22,394 nt of DNA from a virus (lineage: Duplodnaviria > Heunggongvirae > Uroviricota > Caudoviricetes): IMG/VR virus record IMGVR_UViG_2627853701_000001. One strand, written 5' to 3'. Each line of letters opens with the position of its first letter. The stretch's first letter is position 1. Below, one piece after another: positions 1 through 6,000 of this stretch. Position numbers: made by a program.

Positions 1-3000
1 ATGGAAAACAAATGTATTGAAAGTGAGCAAATCTTTTTTGCTAAGATGAACAGGTATAGTTTCAAACTGTCAGATAAGAAATGGCAACTGGATAAAGAAA
101 ACTGCGTATACCCTCATAAAGTTGTAGATAGAATGCCTACAAAAATGAAACTTAGCTACTTAAAAACATTGGCTTACTATGCGTCTGAATATAGTTCTTT
201 TTATATTCAAAGTATTAACAATCTATTTTATGAGTGGTTTGGTGCGATGACTATCGATACTATTGATGACAAAGCAATATATCAATTGAATGTTTATTTA
301 GGTTCAGAAAGAAACTACAAACTAAACTTAATTAAGGCTTTCATCATTAAATGGAAAAATCTCAATTACCCTGGGGTAGAAGCGACTGCCATTAGAATGC
401 TGGAGAAAATAAAAATCATTCCAAACCAAACAGGAGATGCAGTTAAAAGACGAGATCCAAATAAAGGACCTTTAACTGAAGCGGAATTCAATAACATCAT
501 TAACGCCGTTGGAAAATTTTATCATGAGAAGAAAATTCAATGCTTTTTGTATTGTTATATCCTTTTGCTGGCAATAACAGGAAGAAGGCCATTACAATTA
601 ATATCTCTAAAAGCTAAAGATCTCATTAAAAATGAGAGAGGGTGCTTTTTGAATGTACCAAAAGTAAAACAAAGAAAATGTTTCAGAAAAGAATTTAACA
701 TGGTTATGATAGAGCCGTTCTTATATGACAGCTTATCAATGCTAATTAATCAAAATCAGGCGTTTGTTGAAGATAAATTCAGTGTTGGGATTAGTAACTA
801 TAGAGGCGAATTACCAATCTTCATGAATTTAGATAAGATTACGGAAACAAAAAGGATTGAGGATTTTTTATATGATTTAACAACAGATTTTTTCCATATG
901 AAAAATTCAGTTATGTCAAAACTATTAAAACACTTTCCGTCAAAATTCGATGTTAGGTCAGAAAGGACTAACAGCTATATAGAACTTAATGCTAGAAGAT
1001 TCAGATATACGTTAGGAAGTCGACTGGCTAATGAAGGAGCCTCAATTGAGGTGATTGCTAAAGCGTTAGATCATAAATCAGTAAACTCTTCTATAATATA
1101 TATAAAAAATAATCCTGACAACGTTTATGACATCGATAAGAGACTAAGTGCGTTTTTTAACCCCTTATCTAATATACTTATGGGCATAGAGATTGAAGAA
1201 AACAAGAACTTTTTTATCAAGTTTGTTTCAGATGCATTTTTCTTATTGGAAGATACGAAAGAGGATTTGAAATGTTTAACGTGTAAAAAATTCAATCCCT
1301 GGAGAGCATTATGAACAATATATTTATTTTTGAACCAAGCAATAAAAACAACCCTCTCGATAATGTTATTAAGTTTATCGAGTTTTGTAAGAGTACTATT
1401 TCTAATAATAATTTAACAACTTCATGGGAAAGCAATAAATGGAAAGGTTTATATAGGTTTACTAAGTTTAACTCAAAAAACAACCTAAACAGCAAGGAGT
1501 GCTTAGATGATAGCTTTATTAATTTTGCTAAAGCATATATGTTGCATGTGCATTCATTCAATAAATCTAAGACGAAACACTCAACATTATCAATGTTGAA
1601 GATTGTCGAATTCGTTTTACTTAAAATCAATATGGAAGCTAATGTAAACTATTGCAACAATTCAATCTATGATGAATGCATAAGGATAGCCTCTGAAAAG
1701 TATTCTAAAGCACATGCATTTGCTATTGGGAAAGAACTTGAGAAATTGAGTTCATTTTTAAATGATAATAGGATGACTAACTCATTTTATTTATTTTGGG
1801 TAAATCCAATTAGGTATAGGATTACTCAGTCTTGGACTGGTTATGATTCTTCACTGGAAGGCCATTCTAGATTGCCTGATATCAAATCAGTTATTGCGAT
1901 TGCTGAGATTTTTTCAAAGCGGGATGAACAATTATCGTCAAGAGATATATTTACTACATCTGTGCTTGCTTTACTTATGTGTGCACCGAGTAGGATATCG
2001 GAAATTTTAGCTTTGCCAGCGGATTGTGAAATCACAGAATGTGATGGAAAGGGCATTCAAAGATACGGTTTAAGATTTTTTTCAGCAAAAGGGTATGAAG
2101 GCAATATAAAATGGATTCCAACTTTAATGATACCTGTAGCTAAAAAGGCTATTAGCAGATTAAAAGAATTATCAAGTCAAGCGAGGTTATTGGCTGCTGA
2201 AATTCAAAAGAATTACTCTAATTCAACGAAGGGAACCCTTAAAGAAAATATACCTCCTGATCTCTTTTGGTATGATAGAGAGAAGAAAATCAAATATTCT
2301 AATGCGCTTTGCTTGTTAACTGAAGGACAGTTAAATCAAAATAAAAAGGAAATGTCAGATAAATTATTCAGACCTACAACGAATTTTTTTAAAACTGATA
2401 TCATTGATTCTGATTATATAAAAGGGTATTTTAATGTTTTTAAAAGACATGGTTATATAAATGAAGATGGTAGCCCATATTTGCTAAGAACACATCAACT
2501 AAGGCATCTTCTCAACACATTTGCTCAAATAAATGGTATGGATGAATTTAGTATTGCTCGCTGGTCTGGACGTAAGCTTATTTCTCAAAATGTTTCTTAT
2601 GACCACAGATCGCATCTTCAAATGTCTAAAGCAATAAGAGAAAAAAAGTTATCAGTATGTGTTAATGAGCACAGAATAAAGGATATTCCAGTAGTGGATC
2701 TTAATGAGTTTGACTCACTTAGTAGTGGTGCAGTACTTGTATCAAAACATGGCTACTGCAAGCACTCATATGCGTTTAAGCCGTGTGATAATTATCCAAT
2801 TAAGAACTCTGGTTTAGATAACGAAACGATTTCAAATATCCACGATAAAATTTTAAAAAGAACACTGTATGATAAAAATGATGGGAACATAAATGCTGAT
2901 AAATGGTATGAATTCCATAAAAAAATAAAAAAAGGAGAATAAATGGCTAAGCATATAAATGGTTATCATGAGAAGAAGATTGTAGATGTTATTAACACAT

Positions 3001-6000
3001 GGTCTATAGATGAAAAACTAACCTGGAATGCTTTGTGCGATAGGTTAGTCAGGGTTATTGGGAAAAGACCATCAAGACAATCCTTAAGTAGTCATGTAAG
3101 GATTGCGGAAAGCTTCAATGTGAAAAAAACCACAATCAAATCTGGTGTAATACACACTGTAAAACCTGCTAATTTAAAAGTGGCTTCTCAACGAATTAAA
3201 AGACTTGAAGCAGAAAATGAAGCTTTGAAGGCATTAAATGAACGCTATTTAGAGCAGTTCAAAGTATGGCTTTATAATGCTCACCTTAAACAAATAACGA
3301 TTGAAGAACTTAATAATCCGTTACCTGCAAAATACCTTTAATAAAATTGATAGGTTTTAGCTATTGACATGGTGAAATATTATGTTATTTATTTTCTTGT
3401 CAGGACGACAAAATTTCACTATTGCAAGGATGCATATTATGGACAAAACAAATATTAACTTAATGGAAAGGTATCTTCTTCTGCTTGATCGATTCGTTGA
3501 TAAACTCGCTGAATCAGGTTTCTCAGAGCAACGAATTATCGAACAATCATATCTTTTTTGTGCAGGATTTTATATCAAATACCAGAGTGGTATAGAAAAA
3601 ATGACCTTCTCCAACAGGGAGGTTGTTTTAACCTTTCTGCTACTTTCATATTATAGTCATATAAATAAACTGGATGATGATTTGATCAACAAAGAGCGTA
3701 TGAAGCATGTATGTTCTTCATTGATTAACTTTATAGTCAGTAATGGTAGCCGAACAGAGAAAGTCTATGCTAATGAGAAAAGGAAATATGAGGCTTCAAC
3801 TCTAAAAAGAGAATTATCGAAAAAGGATAAAAGGAAAAGATATAGGTTGTAGTGTTTGTATGATTTTCATTAGACTTACTTAATCTATAGTCTAAATTTT
3901 AATATTAGATTCGTAAATCTATAATTCCATGAATCTAATTAATGCTTAAAAGCATCCTCTAAGATGCTTTTACTGTTACCATGCATACATACCCAGAACC
4001 TTTAACAAACGATAATAGAGGGGAGTTGTGTATAACAACTCCCTGACCTTACTAAGGTTAGCGATGTTATTCAGCATCATTCTGTCAAAGATTTAATTTC
4101 TTTGAAAAATACTAATTCTACCCCTTAAGTTAATAACTTCTGCTTGATCGTGTATTTTGGTAAGTTGGAGTACAATTTTTTGATTGGATCGTCAATAAGA
4201 AAAAGCTAGAATCCTTAGAAGGACATAGATTTTCATAGGGTTAAGATATGACGATTGCGAAGGATAGTTCGACTGATGAAATCATTCATGGAAATGATCT
4301 CCGTGGAATGGATGATTTTTACATTAAGACAACGAGTTTTGAATGCCCATACGAGCCTTGTAAAATTAAAGCCACACCTTGTAGTTTTACTATGAAACAT
4401 GTTAATCAATCATATTTCAGATATGGCGATAAACATAAGGATGGATGTGGTATTCATGATCCAAGATATAAAAACAATCATACTTCAAATGACGAAAGAA
4501 AACATAATTCGCCACCTGCTCCGGTTATATCACTTTTAAAAATTGATGTGAAACCAAGAGGTGGTGTTAAAAATGCCAGAAATATTAAAAATGAAAATCA
4601 CAAGGATGAAAAAAAAGGTAATGAACATCCTGTATCTTCATCAAGTATTAAGCCAGTCGTTGACTATTACATAAATAATAGCAATCATAATGAACAGCTA
4701 TCAATCCCTCCATATGGCACGCGATCTTATAAAGATACATTTCAACTTATTTTTTACAAAAACAACATACGTTATTACAAACCTGCTATTTATTATGGTG
4801 TAGCCCAGTCTAATATTCGTCTGCATGAAGATTCAGATAAACATTGTATTACTTTCCTCGCAAGGGATAAGAAAACCCAAAAACCATTTACGCTTGAAAT
4901 TGATGTTTCTGACTGGAATAAAAGTCAGAAGGATGTGTTTTGGAAGGAATATGAAAAGCAAAGGAAGGAAGCTGATAGGTATTATAAGGGGCTTAAAGAT
5001 AAAAGGAATGCTAAAAAATACTTGACGGTTTTCTTTTTTGGGATGCCGGATGAAAATGATAAGTTTCTATTTAAGACAAACCACTTTAAATTAGTATATG
5101 TGGCTTTCTTGGGTAAATTTGAAAGCTCATATAATGATAGTAATTATTACATTGAAAATGATCTGTCTGTATCATCATTGAATGAACAACCCATTTCATT
5201 ATCTGATATAGACCATAAAAATCATGAATATAATATTGAAACTTCATTAGATTTTAGTTCTCCTTTGCCAGAGCCAGAGCCAGAGCCAGAGCCAGAGCCA
5301 GAGCCAGAGCCAGAGCCAGAGCCAGAGCCAGAGCCAGAGCCAGAGCCAGAGCCAGAGCCAGAGCCAGAGCCAGAGCCAGAGCCAGAGCCAGAGCCAGAGC
5401 CAGAGCCAGAGCCAGAGCCAGAGCCAGAGCCAGAGCCAGAGCCAGAGCCAGAGCCAGAGCCAGAGCCAGAGCCAGAGCCAGAGCCAGAGCCAGAGCCAGA
5501 GCCAGAGCCAATAAGATCCTCTTTAAAGGAAAATACTGAGACTGTAGAAATGAACAGTAAAGTTTGGGGGAGGCTGAAAAAGATAATCACTTTCTTTAAA
5601 AAGTGATTTATGTTTCTGTAAAAAGCCCGTAGGTATCAACTGCGGGCTAAATTTTCCCTTGATGCTGGTTTTGTCTTTTATCTAAAAAATGCCAGTCTTC
5701 ACGTTGCTTGTTCCAGCATTAAAGATGTATGTGCTGACTTTTTCGCCTTTGAAAGAAACTGTCAGAGATTTAGTTTGTGAGTCTGCGCCACCTGCAAGCA
5801 GTCCCACAACGGGGATGAAAGAGGTTGCTTTGGACTGGCTGTTATACATAGTGTATGACCATTGTTCTTCACCATCGATCAAAGAACGGCTGTCAGGTTC
5901 ACCGAACGATGCTAACACGTCCTGTTTTGTAGTTTTGCCTTTAACAATTTTGGTTTTCACACTTTCCTGCGTCTCATTTTTCAATGACTGGTTGCCTACT

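What the first reader, a model, noticed from the sequence alone, without database searches (positions are those of the whole stretch)
1..5660. AT-rich three-gene tyrosine-recombinase module with orphan cargo: candidate site-specific mobile element carrying an uncharacterised payload
Three tightly coupled genes (recombinase-like 437 aa, canonical recombinase 543 aa, coiled-coil 132 aa; overlapping ATGA and abutting TAA/ATG) reproduce the Tn554 tnpA-tnpB-tnpC layout. The same layout defines recently described recombinase-trio islands in Gammaproteobacteria, which carry defence or antibacterial cargo directly downstream. Here the downstream cargo is two orphan genes in the same orientation (3382-3852 and 4248-5606). 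The block is far more AT-rich than everything to its right and ends at a stem-loop just before a convergent gene. Neither cargo protein shows a motif I can place in a known family. The element's left end lies outside the window.
Basis: partly seen in the sequence, partly recalled or inferred. Interest (0 to 1): 0.8.

Follow-up and report, generated by a model that had tools for sequence, protein, structure and literature searches.

The report
Truncated GInt recombinase island in O157
The three coupled genes are the last three of a four-gene "GInt" recombinase operon that is already catalogued in E. coli O157:H7. Here it survives only as a cut-off remnant with one real cargo gene, so the finding is largely ordinary.

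Summary
The ORFs, their couplings and the low G+C are real. The window is E. coli O157:H7 DNA from the ssrA island (Sp17 is my recollection of the name).

A fourth gene, a 401-aa tyrosine recombinase, ends one base before window position 1. The module is therefore recombinase, recombinase, recombinase-fold protein, small protein. That is the ginABCD layout of GInts (Bardaji 2017), not the three-gene Tn554 or GMT layout. The exact ORF2 and ORF3 proteins are already listed as ginC and ginD orthologues in Idola 2023, Additional file 10.

ORF2 has no Pfam hit, but its model matches only tyrosine recombinases and it keeps R-K-HxxRH-W-Y.

The "cargo" is mostly backbone. ORF4 (true start 3439) and the convergent BamE-like gene recur beside gin operons in many Enterobacterales. 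Only ORF5 is sporadic. It has a Cys/His N-terminus, a weak OB-like and Avs8B-like domain, and a (PE)n tract encoded by a length-variable repeat.

The block does not end at 5660. Homology to an intact Enterobacter relative runs to about 6034, where an IS30 fragment replaces the hypothetical gene, relaxase and cargo found in relatives.

A likely Gin crossover site lies upstream of ginA, outside the window. The O157 copy is probably immobile.

The parts
1..1314 (+). ginB-like tyrosine recombinase (437 aa, WP_000428092). It is the second gene of the operon; ginA lies just upstream of the window.
   Evidence: Pfam Phage_integrase 2.9e-11, above the cut-off. NCBIfam integrase_1 scores 320 bits, below its 350 cut-off; GmtY scores only 20.9 bits. 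The upstream ginA is shown.
1311..2942 (+). ginC-like protein (543 aa, WP_001059531) with a tyrosine-recombinase fold and a full catalytic-type residue set.
   Evidence: No Pfam or NCBIfam hit. The AF2 model (pLDDT 77) gives 50 of 50 top PDB hits to XerH, Tn1549 Int, Cre, IntI and lambda Int. R228, K260/K267, H395, R398, H399, W418 and Y430 are invariant. Listed as a ginC orthologue in Idola 2023 Additional file 10.
2943..3341 (+). ginD-like small protein (132 aa, WP_001052051).
   Evidence: Found directly after the GinC homologue in 76 of 78 related loci, including Pseudomonas and ssb-inserted GInts. Listed as a ginD orthologue. No family hit.
3439..3852 (+). ORF4 (137 aa): a conserved accessory gene of the enterobacterial gin subfamily, not free cargo.
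   Evidence: Start fixed by the alignment. Present after ginD in 35 of 78 loci, down to 26-30% identity. Only 20 representatives among 1.84 billion proteins. No family hit.
3947..3972 (+). Hairpin after ORF4; a likely terminator.
   Evidence: -11 kcal/mol, z -4.3.
4248..5606 (+). ORF5 (452 aa): the one sporadic cargo gene. It has a Cys/His-rich N-terminus, a central beta-rich domain, a (PE)n tract and a short basic tail.
5267..5510 (+). GCCAGA x 40.7 tandem repeat encoding (PE)n; its length varies between strains.
   Evidence: Matches to window 1-5700 span 5640-5772 bp in O157 genomes, in steps of 6. Homologues carry only 2-6 PE units.
5624..5648 (.). Hairpin between the convergent ORF5 and the BamE-like gene.
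   Evidence: -17.1 kcal/mol, z -3.55.
5682..6034 (-). BamE-domain lipoprotein gene, a backbone gene of the subfamily. Here it has lost its first ~22 nt and its promoter.
   Evidence: Pfam BamE 2.1e-6. Present in 17 related loci. Homology to the intact Enterobacter copy (L016 14164-14538) stops 22 nt short of its start codon, at window ~6034.
6035..6775 (-). IS30 transposase fragment that marks the truncation of the island.
   Evidence: RefSeq pseudogene lacking its C-terminus. IS30 matches start at this point. HTH_38 and related hits.

Best explanation
Window 1-6034 is the surviving proximal part of a GInt-family island (Genomic Island with three Integrases, also called the Tn6571 family) inside the ssrA-linked island of E. 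coli O157:H7.

The operon is ginA (outside the window), ginB (ORF1), ginC (ORF2) and ginD (ORF3). In Pseudomonas GInts all four genes are required for excision to a circle and for site-specific integration. That is published knowledge and was not tested here.

I infer that the Gin proteins act on a core site about 160 bp upstream of ginA, outside the window. It reads GGTATGGATAC-AGCCCA-CTAGCCGTACC. Its spacer differs in every relative, although the flanks are at least 95% identical.

In Enterobacterales this gin subfamily is one module of a larger mobilisable island:
- a P4-like integrase next to a tRNA or tmRNA gene;
- DUF6387 and an AlpA-family gene;
- the core site, ginABCD and ORF4;
- sometimes a BamE-like gene;
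- a hypothetical gene, a MobA/VirD2-type relaxase, and then variable (often defence) cargo.

In O157 everything beyond the BamE-like gene was replaced by an IS30 fragment and a lambdoid prophage remnant. The P4-like integrase is also gone. The copy is therefore most likely an immobile relic.

ORF5 is the only true cargo gene. My best guess, with low confidence, is a nucleic-acid-binding protein linked to defence islands.
For: Identity and layout:
- 100% identity to O157:H7 chromosomes.
- ginA ends 1 nt before the window and hits Pfam Phage_integrase at 2.4e-18.
- The four-gene order holds in 76 of 78 related loci. These include Pseudomonas and elements inserted at the 3' end of ssb, a site described for GInts.
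- The exact accessions of ORF2 and ORF3 are in the published ginC/ginD list.
- ORF2 has the recombinase fold and the catalytic-type residues.

Subfamily architecture.

Truncation: homology to the intact Enterobacter island stops where IS30 begins.

Loss within the lineage is by IS-mediated deletion, not by excision.

Core site:
- There is one copy per locus, with 11-bp inverted arms and a different spacer in each locus.
- Two loci are identical over 340 bp except for the spacer.
- A Pectobacterium indel has one end exactly at the spacer.

Recent spread between genera: 94-97% DNA identity in Klebsiella, Xenorhabdus, Brenneria, Enterobacter and Pantoea.
Against: - No attR and no flanking direct repeats were found.
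- No empty site exists in 5426 E. coli genomes.
- The role of the core site is inferred from comparison only.
- The literature says GinC lacks the first Arg, or the RHRY motif. I find these residues invariant (against 33, 84).
- Immobility is inferred, although all four gin genes and the core site are intact.
Confidence: 0.8

Rival explanations
1. Refinement A, which I favour. The usual arrangement DUF6387-AlpA-core-ginA is the unrecombined, attI-like joint of a GInt circle. That circle sits in the chromosome through a P4-like integrase carried in its cargo. The 116-bp AT-rich block to the left of the spacer would then be the GInt 3' end.
For: - The site is complete, with both arms conserved, and there is only one per locus.
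- TGTAAAG motifs lie on both sides of the core. The same motif sits inside the left end of ssb-inserted GInts.
- Identity jumps sharply at the left edge of the 116-bp block, from 74-84% to about 95%.
- No empty site was found in E. coli.
- The integrase module occurs in either orientation next to DUF6387.
Against: No locus was seen with DUF6387-AlpA at the right end of a Gin-integrated copy. The right flank of Pectobacterium L029 lies beyond the DNA I hold.
Confidence: 0.45
2. Refinement B. A GInt is nested in a conserved attB just downstream of alpA in ROD21-like (EARL) islands. The core site is then attL, and attR lies further right. In O157 attR has been lost.
For: - DUF6387 plus AlpA mark the distal end of EARL islands such as ICEKp258.2, which has no gin.
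- Published GInts show conserved targets and variable att cores.
Against: - No attR-like second site lies between gin and the P4-like integrase in the nearly complete islands L003 and L007.
- The left arm is a near-perfect inverted copy of the right arm.
Confidence: 0.3
3. This is an intact three-gene Tn554-like or GMT-like transposon. Its cargo is ORF4 and ORF5, and its right end is the hairpin at about 5650.
For: The gene sizes (437, 543 and 132 aa) resemble TnpA/B/C, and the genes are tightly coupled.
Against: - A fourth recombinase gene is coupled upstream.
- GmtY scores 21-22 bits against a cut-off of 340.
- ORF2 has no Phage_Integr_2 hit.
- Homology to relatives continues to about 6034.
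- A similar GCCCGTAG-type hairpin follows ORF4 in relatives that lack ORF5.
Confidence: 0.03
4. The gin module is domesticated. It serves as a multimer-resolution or inversion system for the host island rather than for mobility.
For: A single complete palindromic site lies next to the recombinase operon.
Against: Resolution between identical sites would preserve the spacer. Instead the spacer is hypervariable, and a heterologous junction exists.
Confidence: 0.1

Closest known systems
GInts (ginABCD; Bardaji et al. 2017, PMC5385486), also called the Tn6571 family
   Same: - The operon has four genes: two Pfam-recognisable tyrosine recombinases, a larger divergent recombinase-fold protein and a small fourth protein.
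- Cargo begins right after ginD.
- All four proteins have syntenic homologues in Pseudomonas and in ssb-inserted elements.
- The exact ginC and ginD accessions are listed in Idola 2023 Additional file 10.
   Different: - This subfamily is always embedded with DUF6387-AlpA upstream and ORF4 plus a relaxase downstream, in islands that have a P4-like integrase at a tRNA gene.
- The core site is complete, and no attL/attR pair was found.
- GinC keeps every catalytic-type residue.
- The O157 copy is truncated.
[quoted passage not shown]
   Same: - Four core genes, with three recombinase-fold proteins and a small coiled-coil protein.
- A 6-bp variable junction is carried between sites.
   Different: - The gene order differs. 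In SEs the large Tfp is second; here the large protein is third.
- GinC/GinD and Tfp/Srap fall into separate clusters in the paper.
Tn554 (tnpA-tnpB-tnpC)
   Same: It has tandem tyrosine recombinases and a small essential third protein, and it inserts site-specifically with a 6-bp footprint.
   Different: It has three genes and no GinC/Tfp counterpart, and its hosts are Staphylococcus and Enterococcus. I made no direct sequence comparison.
Gamma-Mobile-Trio (GMT) islands (bioRxiv 10.1101/2023.03.28.534373)
   Same: The recombinase genes define the 5' end of an island, with defence or offence cargo downstream.
   Different: GMT has three genes. GmtZ carries a Phage_Integr_2 domain and GmtX is StbA-like. 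Here GmtY scores 21-22 bits against a cut-off of 340, and neither of the other two features was hit.
EARL / ROD21-like genomic islands such as ICEKp258.2 (PMC10763509)
   Same: They have a P4-like integrase at a tRNA gene, an AlpA-family directionality factor, DUF6387 as the last gene, and a relaxase.
   Different: The described EARL islands have no gin operon. The O157 remnant has lost both the integrase and the relaxase.

Membership tests
GInt | Operon of three consecutive tyrosine-recombinase-like genes followed by a small fourth gene | tested here: met
   The ginA, ORF1, ORF2 and ORF3 genes are coupled: a 1-nt gap, an ATGA overlap and a TAA/ATG abutment. The recombinase domain or fold is shown.
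GInt | Sequence homology of the proteins to GinA-D of recognised GInts | tested here: met
   The exact ginC/ginD accessions appear in the published orthologue list. Syntenic homologues of all four proteins occur in Pseudomonas and in ssb-inserted elements.
GInt | GinC lacks the first catalytic Arg (Bardaji) or the RHRY motif (Idola) | tested here: not met
   R228, H395, R398, H399, W418 and Y430 are invariant in 24 enterobacterial homologues and in homologues from Pseudomonas, Aeromonas and Rhodoferax. Since the same holds in those relatives, this conflicts with the published description rather than excluding membership. The assignment rests on motifs and was not checked residue by residue on the structure.
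GInt | Cargo starts at the ginD stop codon, and the element ends in a short AT-rich 3' segment | tested here: inconclusive
   Homology with O121:H19, which has a different gin operon, starts at 3383, just after ginD. The distal end is missing in O157 because of the IS30 junction at ~6034.
GInt | Flanking imperfect direct repeats (attL and attR, 10-17 nt) | tested here: inconclusive
   No second copy of the left-end motif or of the core site was found in the window or in near-complete relatives.
GInt | Excision to a circle and site-specific integration that need all four genes | not testable with these tools
   This needs PCR and genetics. The indirect evidence is the hypervariable spacer and an indel ending at the spacer.
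Tn554-like | Three-gene tnpA-tnpB-tnpC module | tested here: not met
   The operon has four genes, three of them with the recombinase fold.
Tn554-like | Sequence homology to TnpA, TnpB and TnpC | not tested
GMT | A GmtY-family recombinase | tested here: not met
   NCBIfam recomb_GmtY scores 20.9 bits (ORF1) and 22.3 bits (ginA) against a cut-off of 340.
GMT | GmtZ with a Phage_Integr_2 domain and a StbA-like GmtX | tested here: not met
   ORF2 and ORF3 hit no such Pfam or NCBIfam family at E <= 0.1.
SE (strand-biased circularizing integrative element) | Gene order intA-tfp-intB-srap, with the large non-canonical protein second | tested here: not met
   The large divergent protein is third. The paper places these accessions in the ginC/ginD list, not the tfp/srap list.
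EARL/ROD21-like island (host element) | P4-like integrase at a tRNA gene, AlpA-family factor, DUF6387 end gene and a relaxase | tested here: inconclusive
   AlpA and DUF6387 are present upstream of the window. The integrase and relaxase are absent in O157 but present in relatives.

The most novel reading that the evidence does not exclude
In Enterobacterales, a GInt-type four-gene recombinase module may be a fixed part of tRNA-targeting mobilisable islands that also carry a P4-like integrase. On this reading the module sits there with its own recombination site unrecombined. That site has 11-bp inverted arms and a hypervariable 5-6-bp spacer, flanked by TGTAAAG motifs. Such islands would carry two integration systems. 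The spacer diversity would record repeated Gin-mediated exchange of everything to one side of the site, a way to swap cargo between islands. All three Gin recombinases, GinC included, would be catalytically competent. Separately, ORF5 could be a new stand-alone nucleic-acid-binding defence protein whose acidic (PE)n spacer changes length like a VNTR.
Probability: 0.35. Interest if true: 0.55.

Novelty: already known. Interest (0 to 1): 0.33.

Why it matters
For O157:H7 itself this matters little. The block is a decayed piece of a known type of mobile island, and its one cargo gene is of unknown function.

The comparison it prompted may be more useful. [quoted passage not shown] The enterobacterial relatives offer three things:
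- a sharply defined candidate crossover site with natural spacer variants;
- a conserved fifth gene (ORF4);
- intact copies in E. coli strains such as W2-5, SWHEFF_68 and TUM11353, where the roles of three recombinases could be tested.

These islands also carry defence systems, including ABC-three-component, SIR2 and type I restriction-modification genes. The module may therefore help explain how defence cargo moves between tRNA hotspots.

Tried and rejected
- Sequence profile of the ORF2 family against PDB sequences: no recombinase hit, only a chance match at E 0.99. The fold search was needed instead.
- ssrA repeat: a search for a partial ssrA repeat at the distal island end in O157 found none. 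The matches in other genomes are the native flank downstream of ssrA.
- attR: I searched the window and relatives for TGTAAAGTTT, the palindrome and the 11-6-11 core. Only the copies upstream of ginA were found. I considered the GC-rich hairpins after ORF4 and ORF5 as attR candidates and rejected them. Their arms share only a CCGTA pentamer with the core, and they lie between convergent genes.
- Break at the end of the 11-kb block shared by W2-5 and Brenneria (97.8%): it shows no att-like repeat.
- Empty site in E. coli: the left and right halves of the site always co-occur, in 364 and 355 genomes. The difference fits the weaker sensitivity for one divergent type.
- Link between the GCCAGA repeat and published O157 MLVA loci: the literature search returned only a primer coincidence.
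- PHROGs, PADLOC, Pfam and NCBIfam for ORF3 and ORF4: nothing meaningful.
- The strict terminator scan missed both hairpins.

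
Full report
**1. Observation**

ORF1 and ORF2 overlap by ATGA at 1311-1314. ORF2 and ORF3 abut as TAA/ATG at 2940-2945. G+C is 0.30-0.33 over 1-5000 and mostly 0.40-0.57 to the right. ORFs of 437 and 543 codons in DNA of 31% G+C are not chance.

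Four corrections are needed.
- The window starts exactly at the ATG of ORF1. A 401-aa tyrosine recombinase ends one base earlier, so the operon has four genes.
- ORF4 starts at 3439 and is 137 aa long.
- G+C rises near 5000 because of a perfect GCCAGA x 40.7 repeat at 5267-5510 inside ORF5.
- The hairpin at 5624-5648 is real, but it lies between convergent genes and is not an element end.

**2. Where the window comes from**

Window 1-5700 is 100% identical to E. coli O157:H7 chromosomes. It matches 392 of 5426 complete E. coli genomes, and 304 of them cover at least 80% of it.

In strain Xuzhou21 (locus L001; window position 1 = L001 20001) the gene order is as follows:
- ileY, ypjCB, ypjA, then DUF6387 and an AlpA-family gene;
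- recombinase, ORF1, ORF2, ORF3, ORF4, ORF5;
- a BamE-like gene, then an IS30 fragment;
- a lambdoid remnant (NinG, phosphatase, Q, lysis genes, IS elements, tail fibre fragments);
- espW, an NleG-like gene and espM2, then ssrA.

The DNA just left of DUF6387 is the native flank that lies next to ssrA in island-free genomes. The whole ~24-kb stretch is therefore the ssrA island. The name Sp17 is my recollection and was not checked.

**3. The recombinase module**

- ginA (401 aa) hits Pfam Phage_integrase at 2.4e-18 and Xer-type NCBIfam models.
- ORF1 hits Phage_integrase at 2.9e-11.
- ORF2 hits nothing in Pfam, NCBIfam or PDB sequences.
- An AlphaFold model of ORF2, built from 24 homologues (pLDDT 77), gives 50 of 50 top Foldseek PDB hits to tyrosine recombinases. 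These are XerH, Tn1549 Int, Cre, IntI and lambda Int, with best E 1e-5 and probability 1.00.
- The ORF2 family keeps R228 (APSRISE), K260/K267, H395-x-x-R398-H399, W418 and Y430 invariant. This holds in Enterobacterales and in homologues from Pseudomonas, Aeromonas and Rhodoferax.
- ORF3 has no family hit.

This is the ginABCD layout of GInts: three recombinase-like genes and a small fourth gene, all required for excision and integration in Pseudomonas. The exact RefSeq proteins of ORF2 (WP_001059531) and ORF3 (WP_001052051) appear in Additional file 10 of Idola et al. 2023. [quoted passage not shown] The paper finds GInts in 7.5% of Escherichia replicons, close to the 7.2% of genomes matched here.

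A scan of one genome per species with the ORF2 family returned 78 loci. The order GinA-GinB-GinC-GinD holds in 76 of them. They include Pseudomonas loci and a clade inserted at the 3' end of ssb, a target described for GInts.

The other candidate families fail their tests.
- GMT: GmtY scores 21-22 bits against a cut-off of 340. ORF2 and ORF3 show no Phage_Integr_2 or StbA-like signal.
- SEs have the large protein second, not third.
- Tn554 has three genes.

One point disagrees with the literature. GinC is described as lacking the first Arg or the RHRY motif, yet I find the full set invariant. This rests on motif alignment, not on a residue-level structural superposition.

**4. The "cargo"**

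ORF4 is not cargo. It follows ginD in 35 of 78 loci, down to 26-30% identity. It stays in place where the gin operon is a different type (L004, L005). The family is tiny, with 20 representatives among 1.84 billion proteins, and it has no annotation.

The convergent BamE-domain lipoprotein gene recurs in 17 loci.

Only ORF5 is sporadic. It occurs in 5 of 78 loci. In Pantoea and Erwinia it lies between ginD and ORF4. In E. coli a homologue also occurs away from any gin operon, inside defence islands next to NERD-UvrD, Qat and CBASS genes.

ORF5 has these features:
- invariant C33, C38, C45, H63 and C67;
- a PADLOC hit to PD-Lambda-4_B (2.2e-7, residues 151-284), which is Avs8B, a dispensable partner of the Avs8A sensor;
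- a (PE)n tract, which has 2-6 units in homologues but about 81 residues in this window.

Matches to window 1-5700 span 5640-5772 bp in O157 genomes, in steps of 6. The repeat therefore behaves as a VNTR.

**5. Ends and state of the element**

*Right side.* An intact relative in Enterobacter genomosp. O (L016) has this order:
- tRNA-Thr, a P4-like integrase, DUF6387 and AlpA;
- ginABCD, ORF4, ORF5 and the BamE-like gene;
- a 222-aa gene, a MobA/VirD2-type relaxase, a 146-aa gene, and further genes.

O157 matches it at 98% up to window ~6034, 22 nt short of the BamE-like start codon. The IS30 fragment begins exactly there. The relaxase, distal cargo and P4-like integrase are therefore lost.

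The same backbone occurs in E. coli at ssrA (L005, L007), at leuX (L002, L006) and beside yejO (L003, probably the proL site by my inference). Its variable cargo includes ABC-three-component, SIR2, type I restriction-modification and Hxs genes. DUF6387 plus AlpA mark the distal end of EARL/ROD21-like islands.

Within the O157/O55:H7 lineage, loss happens by IS-mediated deletion (strains NE122 and DEC5E). I saw no precise excision.

*Left side.* DNA identity to relatives in other genera jumps from 74-84% (AlpA region) to 94-97% at L001 18515-18517, at the sequence TTTGTAAAGTTT. That is window position -1485.

**6. A candidate crossover site (outside the window)**

The 280 bp upstream of ginA is conserved even between gin operons of 68% and 43% GinC identity. 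It holds four elements:
- TGTAAAGTTT at the left edge;
- a core of 11-bp imperfect inverted arms around a spacer;
- a 20-bp perfect palindrome that covaries between types (TTTATTTGACGTCAAATAAA against TTTCTTTCACGTGAAAGAAA);
- a second TGTAAAG motif just before the ginA ribosome-binding site.

In O157 the core reads GGTATGGATAC-AGCCCA-CTAGCCGTACC (L001 18620-18647, window -1380 to -1353).

Three observations point to recombination at this core.
- The five variable spacer bases differ in almost every locus, although the flanks are at least 95% identical.
- O121:H19 and SWHEFF_68 are identical over 340 bp except for the spacer.
- Pectobacterium L029 and L031 are 97% identical starting exactly at the spacer. 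L029 lacks DUF6387-AlpA-left arm, and its left flank is the chromosomal flank seen upstream of DUF6387 in L030 and L032.

A variable 6-bp overlap is what is reported for GInt, SE and Tn554 junctions. I infer that this is where the Gin proteins cut and rejoin.

Each locus has only one such site. No E. coli genome has half of it.

Two readings remain open.
- It is an unrecombined attI-like joint of a GInt circle that is integrated through its P4-like integrase. I favour this reading.
- It is an attL in a conserved target of EARL-type islands.

**7. Verdict**

The finding is a real mobile-element module of an already described family, and the locus is already in a published orthologue table. In O157 it is a truncated and probably immobile relic. 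Its only true cargo is one uncharacterised gene.

Noticed in passing
L001 18620-18647 (window -1380 to -1353, outside the window); equivalents in L002-L032: Core-like site upstream of ginA: 11-bp inverted arms around a spacer that differs in nearly every locus, although the flanks are at least 95% identical. A Pectobacterium indel ends exactly at the spacer.
   Followed up: partly
window 1311-2942 (ORF2) and alignments A1, A4: GinC homologues, including those from Pseudomonas, Aeromonas and Rhodoferax, keep R, K, HxxRH, W and Y invariant. Published descriptions say GinC lacks the first Arg or the RHRY motif.
   Followed up: partly
window 5267-5510: The GCCAGA repeat encoding (PE)n varies in length between O157 genomes. 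Matches to window 1-5700 span 5640-5772 bp in steps of 6. I could not link it to a published MLVA locus.
   Followed up: partly
window 6852-6910: A second perfect hexamer repeat, TATTTC x 9.8, lies between the IS30 fragment and the HNH endonuclease gene.
   Followed up: no
window 6035-6775: An IS30 transposase fragment lacking its C-terminus joins the GInt-derived DNA to the lambdoid prophage remnant.
   Followed up: yes
L091 (O157:H7 NE122) and L092 (O55:H7 DEC5E): NE122 lost everything from mid-DUF6387 to the IS1203 copy in the prophage remnant. DEC5E keeps a different remnant at ssrA (hxsA, DUF6119 and a P4-like integrase). This suggests the lineage's ancestor carried a complete island of this type.
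   Followed up: partly
L003 12044-23082 vs L015 7205-18244: E. coli W2-5 and Brenneria sp. share an 11-kb block at 97.8% identity: gin, ORF4, the relaxase and an ABC-three-component system. Their DUF6387-AlpA heads are only 83% identical, and in Brenneria a tRNA-Thr gene lies upstream.
   Followed up: partly
L001 18650-18669 (outside the window): A 20-bp perfect palindrome, TTTATTTGACGTCAAATAAA, changes to another perfect palindrome (TTTCTTTCACGTGAAAGAAA) in other gin types. It looks like a binding site for a dimeric protein.
   Followed up: no
window 9777-10535: An AT-rich (34% G+C) 252-aa predicted membrane protein gene of unknown function lies between the Q antiterminator and the lysis region of the prophage remnant.
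   Followed up: no
window 17756-20316: Type III effector genes espW, an NleG-like (DUF1076) gene and espM2 lie in a second AT-rich patch next to ssrA (about 21367-21729).
   Followed up: no
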